This document shows, one piece after another, positions 11,380 through 23,379 of a DNA stretch of 26,232 nucleotides. Source of the DNA: a virus. Taxonomy: Duplodnaviria > Caudoviricetes. The DNA lies in IMG/VR virus record IMGVR_UViG_3300008255_000426, positions 1 through 26,232 of that record. One strand, 5' to 3'. Position 1 is the first letter of the stretch; the number at the start of each line of letters is the position of its first letter. A program made the position numbers and the translations under genes. A model generated the notes under the pieces. That model was not told where the DNA came from. It was given only the letters and a program-made list of their open reading frames with translations, and searched no databases.

Positions 11380-11598
11380 CTAGCCCGGCCAGTCGGGCGG
11401 GGCCGCGCTACGTGGCCCGCGCCCGCGCTCGGCCTTCTGGCGTTCGATCTGCTGGTCGCGCATGTCCGCCTGCCAGCACTCAAAGTCGACGGACCAGTCG
11501 CCCAGGTCGCTACTCAGCAGGCGGCTCGGGGTCGTGCCGTAGTGCTTCGCCATCCTGCTCAGCACCACCGCCCACCGGCTCGTCAGGAAACGTGCCAA
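11380..11598 (-). CDS. Tail assembly chaperone extension (GT-like), probably made by frameshift
   Basis: Overlaps the chaperone 3' end in the +1 frame, with no clear SD at its TTG. MAKHYGTTPSRLL...DFEC resembles T-region sequences. Confidence 0.65.
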   Translation of the reverse strand: MARFLTSRWAVVLSRMAKHYGTTPSRLLSSDLGDWSVDFECWQADMRDQQIERQKAERGRGPRSAAPPDWPG

Positions 11599-14170: not shown

Positions 14171-14584
14171 TCAGAACCCCAGGTCCCAGCGGCGGCCGAC
14201 GTTCGTGCTGATGCTCGGCTGGCCTGGCTCGGCGGCGTCGGTGGCGAGCGGCAGGTCGAGCGTCACGCGCCCGGCGGCCATCTCTTTCAGCCACGCGACG
14301 GCGGCCTGGTAGTCGATCCACAGGGCGCTGGTGCTGGCGGGTTCGGGCAGCAGCCGCAGCACGACGGCGAGGCGGTAGCGCGCCACGTCGGCGATGCGGC
14401 CGCGCAGTTCGTCGGGCACGTCGTCGAGGGCCAGCGGCACGGTGTACCCGGCGGCGCGCAGGTACCCGTTCGCGTCGGCGCTGGCGCGTTCGATGGCGGT
14501 CTGCCGCTGGACCATCGTCGCGCGCTCCAGCAGGTCGCCGGTCAGCGTCTCGTCGAGTTGCGTCAGGGTCAGGTAGGCAATCAC
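14171..14584 (-). CDS. Head-tail adaptor, Mu gp36-like (DUF1320)
   Basis: AIERASADANGYL...YTVPL...DVARYRL...YQAAVAWLKEMAAGRVTL motifs. Confidence 0.85.
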   Translation of the reverse strand: MIAYLTLTQLDETLTGDLLERATMVQRQTAIERASADANGYLRAAGYTVPLALDDVPDELRGRIADVARYRLAVVLRLLPEPASTSALWIDYQAAVAWLKEMAAGRVTLDLPLATDAAEPGQPSISTNVGRRWDLGF

Positions 14585-14877
14585 GCCTCGGCCTCCAGGG
14601 CGTCGCGGGCGGCGATGATCCGCTCGGCGGTCTTGCGGCCGATGCCGGGCACCTTCACCAGTTCCGCCTCGGTGGCGCCGTACAAGTCCTCCAGCGCCAC
14701 GTAGGGCACCGGGGCGGCCGCCAGGAGGTCGCGTGCGGGGAAGGTGTCCGGGAGGGGCACGGAGGGCGTGGTGGCGGCCACAGCGGCGACGTGGGCGTGC
14801 GCGAGGGCGTCGTTCTCGGCGTCCGCCATCGCGCGTGCCTTCTGCTGCCGGTAGCGCCTGAAGGTGAGCATCCCCAC
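14581..14877 (-). CDS. Small helix-hairpin-helix (HhH) domain protein
   Basis: ATEAELVKVPGIGRKTAERI is an HhH motif. SD AGGAGG. Directly after the capsid gene. Confidence 0.78.
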   Translation of the reverse strand: MGMLTFRRYRQQKARAMADAENDALAHAHVAAVAATTPSVPLPDTFPARDLLAAAPVPYVALEDLYGATEAELVKVPGIGRKTAERIIAARDALEAEA

Positions 14878-15885: not shown

Positions 15886-16455
15886 TCAGGCCGCGCGCGC
15901 GGCGCGGTGGTCGGTGAGGATGCGGACGAACTCGTCGTGATCGGTAACGGCGAGGGCGTGCTTCTCGACGTTGCTCAGGGCTTCCCACTCGGTTCGCTCG
16001 GGCGTCACGTTGACGCCTCGGGCGGGTTCCTTCGCGGCGGTCGCGGAGGTCGGCACGACGCGGGGGGCGGCGTCGAGGTAGGCGCGGAGGCGGGCGGGGT
16101 CGACGCGACCGTTGGCGTCGGTGAGCGCCTTCAGCAGCGCGTCGCGGCTGGCGGGCGTCATCTTGCCGTCGGTGAGTCCCTGCGCGGTCAGGCGCTCGAC
16201 CTCGGCGGCCTCGGTGTCGCGGTCGCGCTTCTCGATCTCGGCCTCCAGTTCGGTCGTGCGGGCGGCGAGGGCTTCGGTGCGGGCTGCGCCATCGCGCCAG
16301 GCCAGGACGGTGCCGAGGAGATCGGCGCCTTCCGGGACCTCGCGCGCGAGATGCCGGACCACCTCCCGATGCGCCGTGAGCGTGGTGACGACCTCCAGCG
16401 CGGCGGCTTCGCTGGCGTCCTCGGTCAGTCCGAGCGTGCGCATGAGTGCCTTCAT
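15886..16455 (-). CDS. Nested in-frame scaffold protein (Mu gpZ-like)
   Basis: Purine-rich AGGAAGGAAGG before the in-frame ATG at 16455 (MKALMRTLGL..ASEA). Mu I/Z is the precedent. Confidence 0.6.
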   Translation of the reverse strand: MKALMRTLGLTEDASEAAALEVVTTLTAHREVVRHLAREVPEGADLLGTVLAWRDGAARTEALAARTTELEAEIEKRDRDTEAAEVERLTAQGLTDGKMTPASRDALLKALTDANGRVDPARLRAYLDAAPRVVPTSATAAKEPARGVNVTPERTEWEALSNVEKHALAVTDHDEFVRILTDHRAARAA

Positions 16456-17019
16456 GCGGCCTTCCTTCCTGGCGCCAGCGGCGCCCGTGGGCGGGTTCGT
16501 TCGGGAGGCGACCAGCGCCGGGAGGTTCCGGGTGGCCGGGAGGTTCGTCAGGGCGACGTTCACGAACTCGACGATCTGGCCGTCCTCGTCGGTGACGAAC
16601 GCGGGGCTGATGTAGCGGTACTCGCGGGCGCGCAGGCGCTCCAGGGCGCGGTCGGTCCAGCGGATGCCGACCGCCCACAGTTCGGGGCCGTCGGGCGTGT
16701 CGCGGACTTCCAGCCGGTACCAGGCGGCGGCGGGCGCCTCGACGGGCGGGTGCTGGAGCGCCTGGTGTTCGTAGTCGAACGAGTATTCGTTCTGCCAGCG
16801 GGCGGCGGCCTCCATGACGAGGCGGGCGCTGTCGGGGGTGAAGTGGAACACGCCCTTTTCGGTGTCGTTCGCGCCGGGGCGGAACAGGCGCACCTCGGTG
16901 GGCGGGTCGGCGGTGGGGATCAGCAGGGACAGGGTGCGGGGGACGAGGATCGGCGCGGGTGCCGCGGTGGCGGTGCCGATGGTGATGCTGGCGGCGTTCG
17001 CGGTGCTGGTGGCGTCCAT
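15886..17019 (-). CDS. Mu-like prohead protease I with C-terminal scaffold
   Basis: FDYEHQ...APAAAW...LWAVGIRWT...EYRYISPAF...VALTNLPA motifs, followed by a coiled-coil C-terminal half. Confidence 0.9.
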   Translation of the reverse strand: MDATSTANAASITIGTATAAPAPILVPRTLSLLIPTADPPTEVRLFRPGANDTEKGVFHFTPDSARLVMEAAARWQNEYSFDYEHQALQHPPVEAPAAAWYRLEVRDTPDGPELWAVGIRWTDRALERLRAREYRYISPAFVTDEDGQIVEFVNVALTNLPATRNLPALVASRTNPPTGAAGARKEGRMKALMRTLGLTEDASEAAALEVVTTLTAHREVVRHLAREVPEGADLLGTVLAWRDGAARTEALAARTTELEAEIEKRDRDTEAAEVERLTAQGLTDGKMTPASRDALLKALTDANGRVDPARLRAYLDAAPRVVPTSATAAKEPARGVNVTPERTEWEALSNVEKHALAVTDHDEFVRILTDHRAARAA

Positions 17020-17039
17020 GCGGTCCCCCTTCCTACGAG

Positions 17040-17077
17040 GTCGCCACCCGTCCCCTGGTGGGGTGACGGGTGGCGAC
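17040..17077. other. 13-bp inverted repeat in the leader of the protease/capsid operon
   Basis: gtcgccacccgtc...gacgggtggcgac; the right arm is partly duplicated in tandem (gacgggtggc x2, 17065-17084). Confidence 0.55.
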
Positions 17078-17118
17078 GGGTGGCGCGGCTTTCACCACGA
17101 GTGGTGGTCCGCGGCGTG

Positions 17119-17160
17119 AGTGTAGCACACGCCCCACCGCGTACAGGACGCGGTGGGGCG
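17119..17160 (-). promoter_or_regulatory. 13-bp hairpin closing the accessory island, abutting an extended -10 (TGcTACACT) for the capsid operon
   Basis: cgccccaccgcgt-acagg-acgcggtggggcg (17130-17160). TGCTACACT at 17127-17119. Confidence 0.55.
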
Positions 17161-17179
17161 CGGGGGTGGCGGGGGTGGC

Positions 17180-17374
17180 CTAGCAGGGCACGTGCTGGTC
17201 CAGGAGCGCCCGTAGGTACTCGCTGGCCGTGGTGGTGCCGCGGGCCTTCTCGATCCGCTTGGCGAGGGCTTGGGGGACGCGGGCGCTGACCTTGACGCTG
17301 CCCTTCGGGTCGATGGGGTCGGGGACGAAGTCACCGAGGTTGCGGCGGCTGGTGATGCTGCGGCGGTCGGGCAC
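17180..17374 (-). CDS. Ribbon-helix-helix (CopG/Arc/MetJ-like) DNA-binding protein
   Basis: SD AAGGAGG then GTG at 17374 (alternative ATG at 17410). SVKVSARVPQALAKRIEKARG-TTTASEYLRALL has the strand-helix-turn-helix RHH pattern. Confidence 0.78.
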   Translation of the reverse strand: MPDRRSITSRRNLGDFVPDPIDPKGSVKVSARVPQALAKRIEKARGTTTASEYLRALLDQHVPC

Positions 17375-17406
17375 GGTGGCCTCCTTGGGGGTGGTGCGGC
17401 GGGCGC

Positions 17407-17685
17407 TCATGCGGCGCGGCCGATCTTGGCGAGGCAGGCGCTGACGGCTTCGTCGGGGGTGCCGCCGTCGGAGGCGTCGAGGCCGTGGGCGCTGCTGTTG
17501 TGGGGGTGCGCGCACCAGACCGGGCGGCCGTGGTCGTCGGTGTAGTCGCGGCGGCGGATCAGGCGCAGGAACCGGAACCCGCGCGCGGTGTTGACGGTCA
17601 GGGCGTACGCCTCGGCCTCGCCGCGCTGGACCTGGACGGCGAACGGCTGCGCCAGCACGTCGGGGCTGGACAGGGTCGGGGTCAC
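17407..17685 (-). CDS. Hypothetical protein (92 aa)
   Basis: GTG at 17685 overlaps the upstream TGA; protein-like sequence ending GGTPDEAVSACLAKI. Confidence 0.65.
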   Translation of the reverse strand: MTPTLSSPDVLAQPFAVQVQRGEAEAYALTVNTARGFRFLRLIRRRDYTDDHGRPVWCAHPHNSSAHGLDASDGGTPDEAVSACLAKIGRAA

Positions 17686-18116
17686 AGGGCGCCGCCGTCG
17701 TGGCGCAGGACGCGCGCGAGGCTGGCGACGGTGGCGTCGCGGTCGAGGGTGCGCCATTCCGCCTGGCCCGCGTGGGCGTCCCAGATTTCGGCGGCGACGG
17801 CTTCGGCGGCGGGGGTGCCGCGGCTGGTCGTCCAGATGGTGACGGTCGCGGTGGGGGAGGCGCCGCCGAGGAGGCGGGTCCAGAGGGCGCGGTCGAAGTC
17901 GGGCGCCCACGGCCGGGTGCGCTCGGGCGTCGAGGCGCCCAGGACGGCGCGCGCCTTGGCGCGGGCGGCGGCGCGGTCGGCTGCCCGGCGGTAGTCGAAG
18001 GCGAGCCACAGGGCCGACAGGGCGGCCTCCAGCGCGTCGATCCGGTCGAGCGCCCGGCCGACGGCGGGGTCGGCCATGGACTGTGTCAGCAGGTGGTGGC
18101 GGTCGGCGGTGGTCAT
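17682..18116 (-). CDS. Hypothetical protein
   Basis: SD AAGGAGG then ATGACCACC at 18116 (alternative ATG at 18140). Confidence 0.7.
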   Translation of the reverse strand: MTTADRHHLLTQSMADPAVGRALDRIDALEAALSALWLAFDYRRAADRAAARAKARAVLGASTPERTRPWAPDFDRALWTRLLGGASPTATVTIWTTSRGTPAAEAVAAEIWDAHAGQAEWRTLDRDATVASLARVLRHDGGAL

Positions 18117-18136
18117 GGTGTCCTCCTTGGGGGCGC

Positions 18137-18349
18137 TCATTCCAGCGCCTCGGCGATGATCCGGTCGGCCTGCTCGGCGAGGTAGAGGGCGGTGGCGATG
18201 TCGGCGCGGGTGACGCCGCCGACGCGGCCGTCGGTGAGGGTGTCGGCGGTGGCCTTCGCCATCATGCGGGCGGCGTCGGCGAGGTTGGCGGCGGCCTTGG
18301 CGATGGTGACGGCGTCGAGGGCGGGCGGGGTGTTCGGGGTGGTGGTCAT
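18137..18349 (-). CDS. Small helical hypothetical protein (70 aa)
   Basis: SD AGGAGG then ATGACCACC. Confidence 0.72.
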   Translation of the reverse strand: MTTTPNTPPALDAVTIAKAAANLADAARMMAKATADTLTDGRVGGVTRADIATALYLAEQADRIIAEALE

Positions 18350-18369
18350 GGGGTCCTCCTGGAGGGGGT

Positions 18370-18394
18370 GGCGCCGGTCGCGGGGACCGGCGCC
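18370..18394. other. 10-bp intergenic hairpin
   Basis: ggcgccggtc-gcggg-gaccggcgcc. Confidence 0.5.
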
Positions 18395-18407
18395 CGAGGG
18401 GTGGGGG

Positions 18408-18665
18408 TCAGTCGCGGGGGTAGTCCTTGTCGGCGGCGGCCCACATCTCCTCGTAGTCGGCGGCCTTGGCTTCGACTTCGGAGGTGATGCCGAGGGCGGC
18501 GGCGGCGGTGCGGATGCCGTCGCCGACGCCGTTGGCGAAGGTGATCGTCGAGGGGGTGTTCGTGGCGCTGCGGGCGACGCGGGCGGAGGCGGCGAGTTCT
18601 TCGGCGAGGGCGCGGATGATCGAGGCGGTGCGGGTGGGGCGGACGGCGTTCTGGGTGGTGGTCAT
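18408..18665 (-). CDS. Hypothetical protein (85 aa), probably leaderless
   Basis: ATG lies 6 nt after TATACT, with no SD. Confidence 0.75.
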   Translation of the reverse strand: MTTTQNAVRPTRTASIIRALAEELAASARVARSATNTPSTITFANGVGDGIRTAAAALGITSEVEAKAADYEEMWAAADKDYPRD

Positions 18666-18671
18666 GAACAG

Positions 18672-18700
18672 AGTATAGGGCGTCCCCGCGCTACTGTCAA
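18672..18700 (-). promoter_or_regulatory. Repeated promoter/operator, copy 1
   Basis: TTGACA-GTAGCGCGGGGACGCCC(17)-TATACT-CTGTTC-ATG. Confidence 0.88.
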
Positions 18701-18726
18701 CCCCCCCGGCCGCAGGGCCGAGGGGG
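18701..18726 (-). terminator. GC hairpin after the SprT-like gene, abutting the -35 of copy 1
   Basis: CCCCCTCGGCC-CTGC-GGCCGGGGGGG on the minus strand (one G-U). Confidence 0.55.
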
Positions 18727-18746
18727 CGAGGTCGGATCGGCGCCGC

Positions 18747-19205
18747 TCAGGCGTCGCGCACGAAGTCCAGCACGTGCCGCTCGCCGCGCTGGTAGCAGGG
18801 GCCGCAGTAGTAGCGGCGCGTCGTGCGGCGCTCGCGGCCCGAGCGGGCGCCGCAGCAGGGGCAGACCAGGGCGTACTTCGACGGCGGCACCACGACCTGC
18901 TGGAGGCTCGCCGTGCGGTTCGGGCGGGCGCCGAGGCGGACGCACGCGGCCTTCCAGGCGGCGCCGTGCTTGGCGCCGGGCGTCAGGGCGTGGGCGATCT
19001 CGTGAAGGATGGTGTCCAGCACCTCGGCCTCGGCGTTCAGTTGGGCGAACGGGCGGCTGAGCGTGATGGTGCGGGCGGCGTAGTTGCAGGTGCCGAGGGT
19101 GCGCTTGCCGCGGCCCCAGACGAAGGTCCAGCCGCGGTGGCCGTTGTCGGTGAGGTGCTGGCGGATCAAGCGCTCGGCGAGGCGGCGGGCGTCGGTGGCG
19201 TTCAC
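18747..19205 (-). CDS. SprT-like zinc metalloprotease with C-terminal Zn ribbon
   Basis: GTG at 19205 overlaps the upstream TGA. KRTLGTC...ITLS...DTILHEIAHAL...HGAAWK, then CPCC...CGPC. Confidence 0.88.
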   Translation of the reverse strand: MNATDARRLAERLIRQHLTDNGHRGWTFVWGRGKRTLGTCNYAARTITLSRPFAQLNAEAEVLDTILHEIAHALTPGAKHGAAWKAACVRLGARPNRTASLQQVVVPPSKYALVCPCCGARSGRERRTTRRYYCGPCYQRGERHVLDFVRDA

Positions 19206-19486
19206 TTGGCGCCCCCCAGGTAGAACGCGGCGGGGGAGACATCGGTCCCGGCGTCGGCGGCGCAGACGGCGTCGATCCAGGCGATGAGGGCGGCGGGGTC
19301 GCGGCGCTCCAGGTCGTCGAGGAGCCAGGCGCGCACGTCGATCACGGCGAGGCGGTCGTCCTGGGGGAGGGCGTAGTCGGCCATGAGGGCGTCGGTGTGG
19401 TCCCATTGTTCGACGACCTGGGCGGTGGTGAGGGCGGCGAGGCGGGCGGCGGCGATGCGGGCGGCGTCCTTGCGGGTGGTGGTCAT
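19202..19486 (-). CDS. Hypothetical protein (94 aa), probably leaderless
   Basis: ATG lies 6 nt after TATTCT. Acidic helical protein. Confidence 0.75.
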   Translation of the reverse strand: MTTTRKDAARIAAARLAALTTAQVVEQWDHTDALMADYALPQDDRLAVIDVRAWLLDDLERRDPAALIAWIDAVCAADAGTDVSPAAFYLGGAK

Positions 19487-19492
19487 GAGTAG

Positions 19493-19521
19493 AGAATAGC
19501 GTGTCCCCGCGCTACGGTCAA
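19493..19521 (-). promoter_or_regulatory. Repeated promoter/operator, copy 2
   Basis: TTGACC-GTAGCGCGGGGACACGC(17)-TATTCT-CTACTC-ATG. Confidence 0.85.
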
Positions 19522-19537
19522 CCCCCCAGCACGAGCA

Positions 19538-19564
19538 CGCCCCCGGTCGATCCGACCGGGGGCG
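19538..19564 (-). terminator. 12-bp GC hairpin between cassettes
   Basis: cgcccccggtcg-atc-cgaccgggggcg; U-tract is weak. Confidence 0.6.
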
Positions 19565-19585
19565 CCTGGGGGCGGGGGCGGGCGC

Positions 19586-19828
19586 TCAGCCGTAGACGGT
19601 CGCGGCGAAGGGGGCGCCATCGGGCAGCGCGAGCGGGGGCATGGCGCAGATCAGGTCGCCGTCGGCGTCGTAGGCGACGACGGCGAAGCCAGCGCGGGCG
19701 GGCTGGACGCGGAACGTGAAGGACGGGCCTTCGGTGTCCAGCCAGCGCAGCGCCGCGCTGTCGGATTGGGCGAGGGCGAAGGCGATGGCCTGGGCGTGCG
19801 CTTCGGTGGGGTAGATGCCGGTGGTCAT
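19586..19828 (-). CDS. Hypothetical protein (80 aa), probably leaderless
   Basis: ATGACCACC at 19828, 6 nt after GATTCT. Begins MTTGIYPTEAHAQAIA. Confidence 0.72.
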   Translation of the reverse strand: MTTGIYPTEAHAQAIAFALAQSDSAALRWLDTEGPSFTFRVQPARAGFAVVAYDADGDLICAMPPLALPDGAPFAATVYG

Positions 19829-19834
19829 GAGTAG

Positions 19835-19863
19835 AGAATCGCGCGTCCCCGCCCTACTGGCAA
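19835..19863 (-). promoter_or_regulatory. Repeated promoter/operator, copy 3 (most degenerate)
   Basis: TTGCCA-GTAGGGCGGGGACGCGC(17)-GATTCT-CTACTC-ATG. Confidence 0.78.
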
Positions 19864-19876
19864 CCCCCACACGGGA

Positions 19877-19903
19877 ACGCCCCCGGCGGGATGCCGGGGG
19901 CGT
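19877..19903 (-). terminator. 11-bp GC hairpin between cassettes
   Basis: acgcccccggc-gggat-gccgggggcgt; shares its outer stem with 19538-19564. Confidence 0.6.
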
Positions 19904-19923
19904 CGGTGCGGGTGCGCGCTCGA

Positions 19924-20061
19924 TCAGGCCAGCGGGGCGACCTCCCAGAACCCGTCGAGGGCGTCGCCGCGGAGGCAGCGGATGCGAACGGGGGCGAGGG
20001 TGGACGCCTGGTAGGCGCGGGCGTCGGCGAGGGTGGCGAAGTAGACGGTCGTGGTGGTCAT
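19924..20061 (-). CDS. Small hypothetical protein (45 aa), not in the ORF track
   Basis: SD AGGAGG then ATGACCACC. Manual translation: MTTTTVYFATLADARAYQASTLAPVRIRCLRGDALDGFWEVAPLA*. Confidence 0.7.
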   Translation of the reverse strand: MTTTTVYFATLADARAYQASTLAPVRIRCLRGDALDGFWEVAPLA

Positions 20062-20081
20062 GTCGTTCCTCCTCGCCTCAC

Positions 20082-20110
20082 ATCGTAGCGCGTCCCCGCG
20101 CTACTGTCAA
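20082..20110 (-). promoter_or_regulatory. Repeated promoter/operator, copy 4 (perfect dyad)
   Basis: TTGACA-GTAGCGCGGGGACGCGC(17)-TACGAT. Dyad GTAGCGCG-GGGA-CGCGCTAC at 20085-20104. The -35 contains the upstream gene's TGA. Confidence 0.88.
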
Positions 20111-20325
20111 CCCTCCCGAGGCAGGTACGTCAGGCCGCCATCCCCAGGGAACGGCCGCCGGTGATCGTTCGCCCCCGACGCGATCTCGTCGGGCACGCCC
20201 TCGGGGAACGCGTCACACGCCGCCGCCCCCCGATGCTTCCGCGCACAGGACCAGCACGCGACCACCGGCTGCGCGGGGAAGTCCCCGCCAAACTTGTCCT
20301 CCGGGTCGTAACCGTCACGGTTCAT
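20107..20325 (-). CDS. Small Cys/His protein, candidate immunity protein of the MuF-ART toxin
   Basis: CxxC...CDAFPEGVPDEI..G.NDH..PFPGD.G pattern. Overlaps the toxin gene end by 11 nt. Immunity role is inferred from position. Confidence 0.68.
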   Translation of the reverse strand: MNRDGYDPEDKFGGDFPAQPVVACWSCARKHRGAAACDAFPEGVPDEIASGANDHRRPFPGDGGLTYLPREG

Positions 20326-21862
20326 ATGGCAGCAGTTCCCCTCTGAGTCGCATCGTCGACCCCTCCATCTTCGCGCTCAGGACGCGGAACCGCGACCCAG
20401 GCGGCAGGATGAACTCCATCTCTGACGAGTAGTTGGACCACGCTTCAGCATAGACGCCAGGGTGGCCCGCCCGCGCCTCGATCTCCAGCAGCACCCGCAC
20501 CTCGCTCGACCCGCCGAAGGACAGGTGCCCGTCGCGCACCGTCGTCGACATGAAACCCTTGTCCTGGACGACGGTCCCGACGTAGTCGTCGATGTCCGCG
20601 GGGAAGATCGACCGCGGCGCACCGTACGACCGGCGCAGCACCACGTCGGCGGGCAGGTCGAACTTGCCGATCAGCGCGGTCGCCTTGTCGACCTTCTCGA
20701 CGACGTACTGGTACGTCCCATCCGGGCGCCCCTGGCGCAGGTAGCGGTTCATGGGGCCGTAGTCGCCCCCGGTGTAGTCCTTCAGCGCCTGGAACTGGCC
20801 GCTGCCCTTCGCCTGGCGGGCGCTGACGCGCCGCGACGAGTGCGCTTCCCTGAAGGTCTTACTCGCGTCCCACTCGCTGAGCGGCTGGAAGGGGCGCGCC
20901 ATGTCCATCTTCGGCGCCTTCGGCGTGCGCGGCTTCCGGGGCCGCTTCGGCTTCGGCGCCGCCGCGGGGGCCGGGGCGGGCGGTGGGGGTGGCGGTGGCG
21001 CGGGCTGAGGCGGCGCTGGCGGCGGCGGCGCTGGCGGCGCGGCCACCGGGGGCGGCGGCGCCACCGGGCCGGGCAGGGGCACCTTCTGGCCCGCAGCGGA
21101 CCCCCACACGCGCTCCATCACGGAGTAGGCGGTCGCGTTGACCTGTTCGACAGGCGCGCCCCACTTCGCCGCGAACGCCGCGCGCAACTGCGGCGGCGCA
21201 TCCTGCAGCGCCAGCGCGCTCCAGTCGGGGCCGTACGTCTCGCGCGCCAGCCCGAAGCCAGCCTGCGGGTCGAGGTCCCCGACCGCGTTCGGGTTCATCG
21301 TCACGCCCTTCTTGCTCGCCTCGGCGCGGCTCATCGTGCGGATCGAGGAGCGGCAGCGGTGGTGCAGCGGCGGCGTGTTCCGCGCCCACCACGGGTCGTT
21401 TGCGGGGTAGACGATCCCGTCGCGGCGCTTGCAGATGTCGGTGGTCGCCTCGTCGAGGATGGCGTCGAACTGCCAGAAGGGCCGCGCGATCAGCACGTCC
21501 GGTTCGGTCATGAGTTCGCGCCGACCGTCGTTGTACGCGGTCTGCACGGCGTTGCGGTAGATCGTCTCGGCCCTGAACCCTGGGTTGGCGACGGTGCCCG
21601 CCCACTCGGCCTCCAACTTCGCCAGCGCCCGCGCGCGGAACCCGCGCAGGCTGGTGCCGTCCTTCATGGTGTCGACCACGTCGACCATCACGCTCTTGAC
21701 CATCTCGACGCTGGCGGCGCCCGACAGGCTGAACGCCTCGCGGCGCCAGCCCGACGCCATCTCGTAGAACGCCTCGGGCGTCATGGGGACGCGCGTCAGG
21801 AACCACAGCAGCGCCTCGGCGAAGTCGGTGGGCTTCGCGGGCGCGGTCCAGGGGGACGCCAC
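20315..21862 (-). CDS. MuF (Mu gpF / SPP1 gp7-like) head morphogenesis protein fused to a C-terminal ADP-ribosyltransferase
   Basis: GTG at 21862 just after the portal stop. MuF motifs: ETIYRNAVQTAYNDGR, WQFDAILDEATTDIC, PPLHHRCRS. Pro-rich linker. ART motifs: ALKDYTG..Y..MNRYLR, VVLRR, DKGFMSTT, SEMEFILPPGSRFRV. Confidence 0.9.
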   Translation of the reverse strand: MASPWTAPAKPTDFAEALLWFLTRVPMTPEAFYEMASGWRREAFSLSGAASVEMVKSVMVDVVDTMKDGTSLRGFRARALAKLEAEWAGTVANPGFRAETIYRNAVQTAYNDGRRELMTEPDVLIARPFWQFDAILDEATTDICKRRDGIVYPANDPWWARNTPPLHHRCRSSIRTMSRAEASKKGVTMNPNAVGDLDPQAGFGLARETYGPDWSALALQDAPPQLRAAFAAKWGAPVEQVNATAYSVMERVWGSAAGQKVPLPGPVAPPPPVAAPPAPPPPAPPQPAPPPPPPPAPAPAAAPKPKRPRKPRTPKAPKMDMARPFQPLSEWDASKTFREAHSSRRVSARQAKGSGQFQALKDYTGGDYGPMNRYLRQGRPDGTYQYVVEKVDKATALIGKFDLPADVVLRRSYGAPRSIFPADIDDYVGTVVQDKGFMSTTVRDGHLSFGGSSEVRVLLEIEARAGHPGVYAEAWSNYSSEMEFILPPGSRFRVLSAKMEGSTMRLRGELLPYEP

Positions 21863-21864
21863 GG

Positions 21865-23379
21865 TTACAAGTCCTCGACGACCGCCCGGCGCCCGGCGAG
21901 GTCGGCGAGGACGATGGCCTCCTCCAGCCCGGCGAGCATGTCGGGTTCGACCTCGTCGAAGATGCGCAGCAGCCGCTCGCGCAGCACCTCCAGACCCTCG
22001 GGCGTCTCGTCGGTCTGGCGGATCAGGTCGGCGAGCGCCTGCAGGGTGCCGCTCATGCGGGCGAGCGGCGCGGCGTTGCGCACGAGGCGGTCGGCGTACA
22101 TCTGGCCGCGCACGAAGCCGCCGATGTTCTCCCGGTCGCCGCTGGCGAGCGCCACGCGCGGCCGCTCCTCGGTGGCCTTCATGCGCTGCGTCAGGCCGCG
22201 CACGACGGCGCGCGGCAGGTTGTACTCCTCGGCCAGCACGTCCACGTCGAGGGGCACGCCGAGATCGAGCCAGGCGCCGACGGCGACGGCGAGCGCCTGC
22301 ATGGCCTCGGCCTTGACCTTCTGACCGGCGGCCGTCTCCTCGACGTTCTCGGGCGGGGTGGTGTCCCAGCGCGCCCACGGGGCGCGGTCGGCGTTGCCGA
22401 AGTTGATCAGGGTCCACGCGCGGATGCTCTGCTCATGGAGGGCGGTGCTGAACGTCTGCTCGTCGCTGGCGATCATGTCGCCGCGGATCGTCTCGTGAAC
22501 CTGCGCGGCGGCGAGGCTGCCGCCCTTGACCTCGGTGGTGAGCGTCTGCCCGGCGATGGTGACGCTGATCCCGGCGTTCGCCGCCTCGATCTGGCGCTCA
22601 AACGTCTCCCAGGAGTTCGCGGTGGCCTCGACCATCTTGATGTCGAACCCGGCGGGCAGGGCGATGCCGGTCACGCCGCTGACCGCCTGGAGGTCGCTGG
22701 CGAGTTCGTCGCGGTCGGCGCGGCTGCTGCCGTCGGGGGTGGTGCCGACGCGCAGCGGGTTGCCGTGCGCCTCGCTGTACGAACCCCAGTCCAACTGCGC
22801 AAACCGCTTCAGGAGCCACCAGCCGCTCAGGCCGAGCCAGAGGCCGCCGCGCCACGCCTTCGCGGCGCCGCCGGGCTGGTAGACCAGCCACTTCGGATCG
22901 GTCGGGCCGATCCGCACGTCGCCGGTGGTGGTGCTGAGGTACCAGGCTCCGTGGTCGTGGTCCCACCGCAGCCACCGGGGCGACCAGACGCGCAGGCGGG
23001 GGATGAACCGGCCGCCGCTGAGTTCCCACACCTGTTCGGCGATGCCGACGCCGACGCCGAGGCCCCAGGTCATGAGGTCGGCCAGGTCGTTCTCCGGGAA
23101 GGCGCGCCAGAAGTCCGTCTCCAGCGCGGTCGTCTCGGGCGTGGGCTGGTCGCCTTCGTGCGGCTCAAAGCGCAGGGGGCTCTTGATCAGGCCGCGGACG
23201 CGGGTGCCGAGGACGCCCGCGATGCGGTCGTCGGTGCGCATCGCCTCAAAGAGGTCCGCGGCCAGCAGCAGGTTGCCCTGGTCGGCCTGGCGGCGGGCGG
23301 TGCGCACGCGCTCGGGCGTCCAGTCCTCGCGGGTGGTGTAGGAGCGGGGTCGGTACGTCAGGTCTGGGGGCTTCGGCAC
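21865..23379 (-). CDS. Portal protein, DUF935 / Mu gp29-like
   Basis: SD GGAGGT then GTG at 23379. DLFEAMRTDDRIAGVL, W..YSE.HGNPLRVG and GQTLTTE..GGSLAAAQVHE motifs. Confidence 0.9.
   Translation of the reverse strand: MPKPPDLTYRPRSYTTREDWTPERVRTARRQADQGNLLLAADLFEAMRTDDRIAGVLGTRVRGLIKSPLRFEPHEGDQPTPETTALETDFWRAFPENDLADLMTWGLGVGVGIAEQVWELSGGRFIPRLRVWSPRWLRWDHDHGAWYLSTTTGDVRIGPTDPKWLVYQPGGAAKAWRGGLWLGLSGWWLLKRFAQLDWGSYSEAHGNPLRVGTTPDGSSRADRDELASDLQAVSGVTGIALPAGFDIKMVEATANSWETFERQIEAANAGISVTIAGQTLTTEVKGGSLAAAQVHETIRGDMIASDEQTFSTALHEQSIRAWTLINFGNADRAPWARWDTTPPENVEETAAGQKVKAEAMQALAVAVGAWLDLGVPLDVDVLAEEYNLPRAVVRGLTQRMKATEERPRVALASGDRENIGGFVRGQMYADRLVRNAAPLARMSGTLQALADLIRQTDETPEGLEVLRERLLRIFDEVEPDMLAGLEEAIVLADLAGRRAVVEDL

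What the first reader, a model, noticed from the sequence alone, without database searches (positions are those of the whole stretch)
17180..20110. Operator-controlled multi-promoter island of small genes ending in an RHH regulator (candidate anti-defence or host-takeover regulon)
Seen: nine short genes interrupt the head operon between MuF and the protease. Four near-identical promoters (TTGACA/TTGACC/TTGCCA-N17-TATACT/TATTCT/GATTCT/TACGAT) drive them, and the last gene encodes an RHH protein. Established: acr-aca and similar early anti-defence loci pair strong promoters and small orphan genes with a terminal autorepressor, and such loci occur between head genes of Mu-like phages. Inference: a burst-on-entry, then self-silencing regulon whose seven orphan proteins are candidate defence inhibitors or takeover factors. 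I recognise none as a known Acr.
Basis: partly seen in the sequence, partly recalled or inferred. Interest (0 to 1): 0.85.

Follow-up and report, generated by a model that had tools for sequence, protein, structure and literature searches.

The report
Self-silencing four-promoter phage gene island
A phage that likely infects Deinococcus/Thermus-group bacteria carries, inside its head-gene cluster, nine small genes behind four near-identical promoters that share one palindrome; the last gene encodes a predicted ribbon-helix-helix repressor that likely shuts the island off after an early burst, a known control design whose seven unrecognised proteins are untested candidates for blocking host defences.

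Summary
Observation confirmed and extended. Nine well-coded ORFs (17180-20061, minus strand) lie between a MuF-ADP-ribosyltransferase gene with its 72-aa follower and the Mu-type head protease. Four sigma70-type promoters (23-25 of 29 bases identical) carry one 20-bp palindrome, GTAGCGCG-N4-CGCGCTAC, across spacer and -10. Three are predicted leaderless and have a separate GC hairpin upstream. The last ORF passes a homodimer prediction with RHH-type contacts (0.66, best control 0.05). None of 28 related head modules carries the island, so it is an insertion. One cargo gene is SprT-like; the three others searched in 5.8 billion proteins (g3, g8, RHH) have no relative. The host is likely Deinococcota.

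Best reading: an Aca-like, RHH-autorepressed early regulon built from repeated hairpin-promoter cassettes. Binding, timing and anti-defence function are inferred, not shown; no known defence or anti-defence family was matched. The design is in print (Aca14, Reg576, T4 PeSLs, cluster K ESAS), and this scan noted similar islands on other DNA, though not this sequence. A new variant of a known kind, valuable mainly as a candidate list.

The parts
20082..20110 (-). Promoter P1 (TTGACA-17-TACGAT) with perfect operator GTAGCGCG-GGGA-CGCGCTAC at 20085-20104; Shine-Dalgarno-led g1
   Evidence: only perfect 8-4-8 palindrome in the window
19924..20061 (-). g1, 45 aa, no family match
19876..19904 (-). 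12-pair GC hairpin between g1 and P2 (likely terminator or attenuator; no U tract)
19835..19863 (-). Promoter P2 (TTGCCA-17-GATTCT), operator 19838-19857 (5 of 8 pairs), ATG 6 nt after the -10 (predicted leaderless)
19586..19828 (-). g2, 80 aa, no family match
19537..19565 (-). 13-pair GC hairpin between g2 and P3
19493..19521 (-). Promoter P3 (TTGACC-17-TATTCT), operator 19496-19515 (6 of 8 pairs), predicted leaderless
19202..19486 (-). g3, 94 aa, no relative found in 5.8 billion proteins; weak pairwise likeness to a small-gene-cluster ORF in L021
18747..19205 (-). g4, SprT-like zinc metalloprotease (HEIAH), 152 aa
   Evidence: PF10263 E=3e-12; 51-55% identity to SprT-like genes of Deinococcota genomes
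18700..18727 (-). 12-pair C/G hairpin abutting the P4 -35 box
18672..18700 (-). Promoter P4 (TTGACA-17-TATACT, 11 of 12 consensus), operator 18675-18694 (6 of 8 pairs), predicted leaderless; heads the unit that ends in the RHH gene
18408..18665 (-). g5, 85 aa, no family match
18370..18394 (-). 10-pair GC hairpin between g5 and g6 (possible attenuator of the distal genes)
18137..18349 (-). g6, 70 aa, no family match
17682..18116 (-). g7, 144 aa, predicted all-helical, no informative match
17407..17685 (-). g8, 92 aa, no relative found
17180..17410 (-). g9, predicted ribbon-helix-helix protein (strand V39-V45, helices 47-56 and 62-73); candidate autorepressor
17119..17162 (-). 15-pair hairpin closing the island (17128-17162), then a TACACT -10-like box (17119-17124) before the protease gene
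   Evidence: similar GTGYGC-TAYRNT boxes seen by eye before the protease region in L002 and L057
20107..20325 (-). Flank: 72-aa ORF after MuF-ART, candidate immunity gene; not under P1
   Evidence: small ORFs follow 89% of MuF toxin genes (PMC5576092, passages)
15886..17019 (-). Flank: Mu-like I head protease/scaffold
   Evidence: PF10123 E=2e-45

Best explanation
The island is likely an early regulon that silences itself: four copies of a host-type promoter, each overlapped by the same palindrome, would fire when phage DNA enters the cell, and the predicted RHH dimer made from the last gene would then bind the palindromes and shut all four off. Three of the four transcripts are predicted leaderless. 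Hairpins between units would limit read-through. Repression would also keep strong promoters from driving the downstream head and tail genes at the wrong time. The cargo (one SprT-like protease, seven unrecognised proteins) most likely acts on the host at entry, as anti-defence or takeover factors; that last step is the weakest (about 0.4). The repeated hairpin-promoter-ATGACCACC cassette likely lets cargo be gained or swapped by recombination. Shown: sequence layout, coding bias, absence from relatives. Predicted: RHH fold and dimer. Inferred: binding, timing, cargo role.
For: Four promoters 23-25 of 29 identical with an 8-4-8 palindrome over spacer and -10; 4 sites at <=2 mismatches against 0.14 expected, 0 of 100 shuffles reach 4 (three are island sites, one lies at 11392). 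The palindrome copies differ without compensatory changes, while separate upstream hairpins vary in sequence but keep pairing, which fits a protein site plus terminators. g9: ESM Atlas first hit is a putative RHH/CopG cluster, score 0.93, 150 of 256 features shared. Homodimer of residues 20-76 scores 0.66, best of 3 controls 0.05; the mark was reached by 21 of 30 solved homodimers and 0 of 23 single chains; runs agree in at least 93% of contacts, pLDDT at least 73; best contacts 42-42, 41-43, 40-44/45 describe an antiparallel two-chain ribbon (the pass may reflect likeness to solved RHH dimers). 0 of 28 related head modules have two or more such promoters between MuF and protease; gap 86-871 nt in 27, 2373 nt in one, against about 3300 here. 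Precedent: RHH Aca14 binds an inverted repeat over the -10 and represses two operons (PMC13551039, section read); RHH Reg576 represses several plasmid establishment promoters (PMC8708921, passages).
Against: No binding or expression data. g9 has no Pfam, PHROG, NCBIfam or PDB-sequence match and no relative, so RHH-operator co-variation could not be tested. Atlas scores of 0.9 or more arise in 4-10 of 100 shuffled proteins. The single-chain model was low-confidence (pLDDT 62, no strand) and matched nothing. No cargo gene matches a known defence or anti-defence family. Island GC and codon use equal those of virion genes, unlike the low-GC acr region of Pseudomonas Mu-like phages (PMC4378225, passage). 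A fifth palindrome copy lies outside the island with no promoter. The window is a fragment, so another regulator may lie outside it. Hairpins lack U tracts.
Confidence: 0.6

Rival explanations
1. The palindrome is an operator, but for another regulator (a phage immunity or early repressor encoded outside this 26-kb fragment); g9 is just cargo.
For: The record is a fragment with no integrase or immunity repressor among 37 ORFs scanned. A fifth site at 11392-11411 lies 6 kb from the island. In cluster K mycobacteriophages the regulator of similar promoter-palindromes is unidentified (PMC11373665, passage).
Against: The four promoter-linked sites all lie in the island that holds the RHH, and relatives lack both. 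One extra site has about a 1-in-7 chance (0.14 expected). A host regulon is unlikely: 3 of 364 Deinococcota genomes match the motif, fewer than match the reversed control.
Confidence: 0.15
2. The island is a lysogeny-expressed accessory cassette (superinfection exclusion or host protection), tuned rather than silenced by g9.
For: Own promoters and closing hairpin are the layout of morons (recalled). MuF toxins are reported only in temperate phages (PMC5576092, abstract passage). Some ESAS-led genes of Adephagia are expressed in lysogens (PMC11373665, passage). The same interval holds other accessory genes in L068.
Against: Every promoter carries the operator. No PADLOC match below E=0.18. Similar promoter arrays in other phages are early genes (PMC11065993, PMC2839356).
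Confidence: 0.15
3. The repeats are PeSL-type promoter/stem-loop cassettes copied by recombination; the palindrome is an RNA or DNA stem or a duplication relic, with no protein operator, and the genes are unregulated early genes.
For: PeSL stems most often lie between -35 and -10 or overlap the -10 (PMC2839356, section 13). Arrays of leaderless TTGACA promoters before small MTT-starting genes are common in viral contigs. Recent duplication alone would explain shared spacers.
Against: The palindrome lies upstream of the predicted start site, so it is not in its own transcript. Three of four copies pair at only 5-6 of 8 positions without compensation. Distinct hairpins already exist upstream of P2-P4. 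A predicted RHH closes the island.
Confidence: 0.1

Closest known systems
Aca14, RHH anti-CRISPR-associated repressor (PMC13551039; one results section and passages read)
   Same: RHH dimer; inverted repeat overlapping the -10; one repressor controls its own and a neighbouring operon of small genes in phages or mobile elements.
   Different: No acr homolog detected here; GC-rich 20-bp palindrome against an AT-rich one; four tandem promoters, three leaderless; g9 has no detected relative (no direct comparison with the Aca14 sequence was run).
Reg576/EGeRS2 establishment regulon of Bacillus plasmid p576 (PMC8708921; passages)
   Same: One RHH repressor, several strong host-type promoters with operators, mostly unknown small genes, transient expression after entry.
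   Different: Conjugative plasmid; operators flank the promoters; includes ardC. Here a phage head-module insertion with the operator inside the promoter.
PeSL cassettes of T4-type phages (PMC2839356, abstract and section 13; PMC4122927, first third)
   Same: Repeated sigma70 promoter plus C/G-rich stem-loop before ORFans; plausible recombination units.
   Different: No repressor is described for PeSLs in what I read; they have AT-rich upstream tracts and Shine-Dalgarno leaders; about 50 per genome against four here.
ESAS promoters of cluster K mycobacteriophages (PMC11373665; passages)
   Same: SigA-like promoters with an embedded inverted repeat before small genes, among them an SprT gene (gene 75).
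   Different: Scattered over the genome, tied to the SAS motif, regulator unidentified.
acr-aca1 locus of Pseudomonas Mu-like phages (PMC4378225, passages; position just before the protease gene partly recalled)
   Same: Accessory small genes with a terminal regulator inside a Mu-type head module.
   Different: Single promoter and HTH repressor (recalled), low GC, proven Acrs.

Membership tests
acr-aca locus (incl. Aca14) | At least one gene homologous to a known Acr or shown to block CRISPR-Cas | tested here: inconclusive
   No match in Pfam, PHROGs, NCBIfam, PADLOC or cultured phages for the proteins tried; no dedicated Acr library was available
acr-aca locus (incl. Aca14) | Small DNA-binding regulator at the end of the operon | tested here: met
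   g9 predicted RHH homodimer
acr-aca locus (incl. Aca14) | Inverted repeat overlapping a strong promoter | tested here: met
acr-aca locus (incl. Aca14) | Regulator binds the repeat and represses | not testable with these tools
   needs EMSA or reporters
Aca14 protein family | Sequence homology to Aca14 | not tested
   No direct comparison; the word-indexed search returned only g9 itself
RHH superfamily | Strand-helix-helix with alternating hydrophobic strand; homodimer through an antiparallel two-chain ribbon | tested here: met
   V39-K-V-S-A-R-V45; contacts 42-42, 41-43, 40-44/45; score 0.66 against 0.05; helices 47-56, 62-73; prediction only
RHH superfamily | Profile match to a curated RHH family | tested here: not met
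   0 families at E<=10 in Pfam; 0 PDB sequences
PeSL cassettes | Repeated sigma70 promoter plus stem-loop before ORFans | tested here: met
   P2-P4
PeSL cassettes | Cargo exchange or excision by recombination between cassettes | tested here: inconclusive
   No relative with the island found; no promoter-to-promoter joint in the one run laid, and contigs drop rare variants
SprT-like (PF10263), g4 | Score above gathering cut-off with HExxH | tested here: met
   46.7 bits against 25.6; HEIAH

The most novel reading that the evidence does not exclude
g9 founds a new RHH family of Aca-like repressors that runs a four-promoter, leaderless, cassette-built anti-defence regulon in Deinococcota phages, and its seven orphan proteins include new inhibitors of Deinococcus/Thermus defence systems, found by regulatory signature rather than homology.
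Probability: 0.3. Interest if true: 0.75.

Novelty: new variant of a known kind. Interest (0 to 1): 0.52.

Why it matters
If right, it is a ready-made test set: one predicted repressor, a defined 20-bp operator in four natural versions (8, 5, 6 and 6 of 8 pairs), and eight cargo genes that can be assayed in T. thermophilus or D. radiodurans. Picking genes by a shared early promoter motif has already yielded real anti-defence proteins in archaeal viruses (PMC11065993, passages). It would extend RHH-type Aca control to leaderless promoters and a new phylum, and suggest a regulator type for promoter-palindrome arrays whose repressor is unknown, such as cluster K ESAS. The control logic itself is not new.

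Tried and rejected
Relatives of the island: g9 in viral contigs (73 pattern hits, 0 confirmed), 5.8 billion proteins (self only), 364 Deinococcota genomes (5 weak hits, read as chance on inspection), cultured phages (E>=2). g3 and g8 self only; g3, g8, g7 absent from cultured phages. g1, g2, g5, g6 were not searched on their own in the large protein collection. The full promoter pattern has 0 matches in viral contigs; the perfect palindrome has 6 stretches, none in a like promoter. A g3 profile with the L021 protein found 0 of 601 candidates. 80 viral SprT loci held no homolog of another island gene. Folds: g9 single chain gave no Foldseek or VIA match; g7 gave none at E<=0.001; both models are alignment-free and weak. 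Rfam: 0 matches. Expression: no RNA holder listed. Assembly artefact: contigs of run X1 (possibly the source) cover 17014-19477 and 19485-20514 with no other letters, and no promoter-to-promoter joint. Host-regulon operator rejected. Conserved virion proteins rejected: absent from 28 related head modules and without structural family hits. One search miscomputed the gap for L003/L063 (one contig); the true value, about 455 nt, is. Supplements of the cited papers were not opened; the Aca14 motif and sequence there could bear on the comparison.
Full report
Context. The window is a whole 26,232-nt virus record at about 73% GC. On the minus strand it reads VRR-NUC nuclease, terminase, Mu-type portal, MuF, then the finding, then Mu-like I protease, major capsid, neck, tail tube, tape measure and tail genes. 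MuF is fused to an ADP-ribosyltransferase domain (PF03496, E=2e-16) and is followed by a 72-aa ORF, the layout of MuF polymorphic toxins with candidate immunity genes (PMC5576092, passages). No integrase or immunity repressor was among the 37 ORFs scanned; the record is likely a fragment. The host is likely Deinococcota. The best cultured capsid matches are Thermus and Meiothermus phages (37-41%). The one genome-collection locus is titled a Thermus MAG. The island's SprT is 51-55% identical to genes in 8 of 8 inspected loci from genomes of that phylum, against about 42% at best among the 30 listed cultured-phage hits.

The observation. Nine ORFs fill 20061-17180. All nine score best in the annotated frame, with GC3 0.94-0.99 like the virion genes. 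The four promoters are present as described and are 23-25 of 29 bases identical to one another. The consensus scan finds three (0.1 expected) and none elsewhere in the window.

Anatomy. Each promoter carries the 20-mer GTAGCGCG-GGGA-CGCGCTAC from the end of the -35 into the -10: perfect at P1, and 5, 6 and 6 of 8 pairs at P2, P3, P4, with no compensatory changes. At two mismatches the window has 4 sites against 0.14 in shuffles: P1, P3, P4 and a lone copy at 11392-11411 with no promoter. At three mismatches P2 joins (5 sites, 1.04 expected, 1 of 100 shuffles reaching 5). The pattern was derived from these copies, so the test shows repetition, not function. At P2, P3 and P4 the ATG lies 6 nt after the -10, a leaderless layout described as common in Deinococcus-Thermus, where an added -35 raises transcription (PMC12340547, abstract). 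P1 and g6, g7, g9 use Shine-Dalgarno leaders. Separate 12-13-pair C/G hairpins precede P2, P3 and P4, a 10-pair hairpin separates g5 from g6, and a 15-pair hairpin closes the island; none has a U tract. The repeated unit is hairpin, promoter-operator, ATGACCACC.

The regulator. g9 has no family or PDB-sequence hit. The ESM Atlas ranks a putative RHH/CopG cluster first (0.93; shuffled proteins reach 0.9 in 4-10 of 100). A single-chain model gave two helices at low confidence and no fold match. The two-copy prediction of residues 20-76 scored 0.66 against a best control of 0.05. That mark was reached by 21 of 30 solved homodimers and 0 of 23 single chains; the runs agree in at least 93% of contacts and pLDDT is at least 73. 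The best contacts (42-42, 41-43, 40-44, 40-45) describe an antiparallel two-chain ribbon over V39-V45, which would put K40, S42 and R44 on the DNA face, as in Arc/CopG-type proteins (pattern recalled). The pass may reflect likeness to solved RHH dimers; it supports the fold, not binding to this operator.

Is it an insertion? Related head modules came from viral, metagenome, genome and cultured-phage collections. In 28 distinct contigs holding both MuF and protease, the gap is 86-871 nt in 27 and 2373 nt in one (L068), against about 3300 here. None has two or more such promoters, and four have one (L003 and L063 are one contig, corrected; many rows are close kin). The nearest, L002 (67% protease identity), has a short MuF directly before the protease. 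The interval is variable: MuF tails differ, L068 holds other accessory genes, and L003 holds a lone 71-aa gene that looks RHH-like by eye but has no BLAST similarity to g9.

Cargo. g4 is SprT-like. g3 and g8 have no relative in 5.8 billion proteins. g7 has no atlas hit above 0.85 and no fold match. None of ten proteins matches PADLOC below E=0.18. g3 weakly resembles a small ORF in L021 (E=0.002, pairwise), a locus with similar palindromic leaderless promoters and the SAS motif I recall from cluster K mycobacteriophages; a follow-up profile search found nothing. The exhaustive HMMER search could not be run, so these are orphans only at the sensitivity used.

How common is the layout? A generic leaderless-promoter pattern gave 50 stretches in viral contigs, many with arrays of such promoters before small MTT-starting genes, some with their own spacer palindromes. 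Of 80 viral SprT loci, 12 have two or more leaderless promoters on the SprT strand, and L136 and L142 show repeated near-identical promoters around SprT. Multi-promoter islands are therefore a recurrent phage design.

Mechanism. Shown: the layout, the coding bias, the absence from relatives. Predicted: the RHH dimer. Inferred: host RNA polymerase fires P1-P4 on entry, before any repressor exists; leaderless messages give quick translation; g9, last in the last unit and behind a hairpin, builds up later and represses all four. P4, which feeds g9, has the best promoter and an imperfect operator, so it could stay leaky and maintain the repressor, as described for Reg576 (PMC8708921, passage). I give this 0.6. 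That the cargo is anti-defence rests on analogy, including shared-promoter discovery of anti-defence genes in archaeal viruses (PMC11065993, passages), and gets about 0.4. Rivals are another regulator outside the fragment (0.15), a lysogeny-expressed cassette (0.15) and PeSL-type repeats with no protein operator (0.1). A host-regulon operator is rejected: 3 of 364 Deinococcota genomes match, fewer than match the reversed control.

Relation to known systems. It works like Aca14 and Reg576 and is built like PeSL and ESAS cassettes. It cannot be filed as an acr-aca locus, because no Acr was detected and binding is untested. Eight paper searches returned results; none listed this locus or such an island in a Deinococcota phage, but the library is partial. 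Earlier notes of this scan describe comparable islands in other genomes and none on this sequence. Verdict: a real, well-defined feature and a new variant of a known kind, interest 0.52.

Noticed in passing
window 20315-22147 and 20107-20325 (minus): MuF fused through a proline-rich linker to an ADP-ribosyltransferase domain, followed by a 72-aa Cys-rich ORF; the small ORF has a 44% homolog after a different MuF tail in L068.
   Followed up: partly
window 11392-11411: Fifth copy of the operator (14 of 16 arm positions) at the end of the ORF just before the tape measure gene, with no promoter; chance or a road-block site.
   Followed up: partly
L003 6207-6422: Lone 71-aa gene, RHH-like by eye, between MuF and protease, the same position as g9; no BLAST similarity or Pfam hit.
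   Followed up: partly
L056 7279-9654, L080 4625-7000, L062 2043-4370, L003 4563-6149: Long MuF C-terminal extensions with no Pfam match beyond MuF in the three scanned (L080, L062, L003); L056, L062 and L080 are followed by a small acidic ORF. Candidate new toxin-immunity pairs.
   Followed up: partly
L019, L025, L026, L027 (one 101-kb contig) and L033: Other high-GC phages with repeated leaderless promoters sharing their own spacer motifs (a CCGAG-N6-CTCGG palindrome in L025-L027); regulators not sought.
   Followed up: no
L068 6580-7200: A divergent pair of small genes, one resembling an HTH regulator by eye, and a strong TTGACA-19-TATACT promoter in the MuF-protease interval.
   Followed up: no
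window 14581-14877 (minus): Helix-hairpin-helix protein (PF00633) between the major capsid and the head-tail adaptor genes.
   Followed up: no
window 17025-17115: Nested strong hairpins in the protease leader, downstream of the TACACT box.
   Followed up: no
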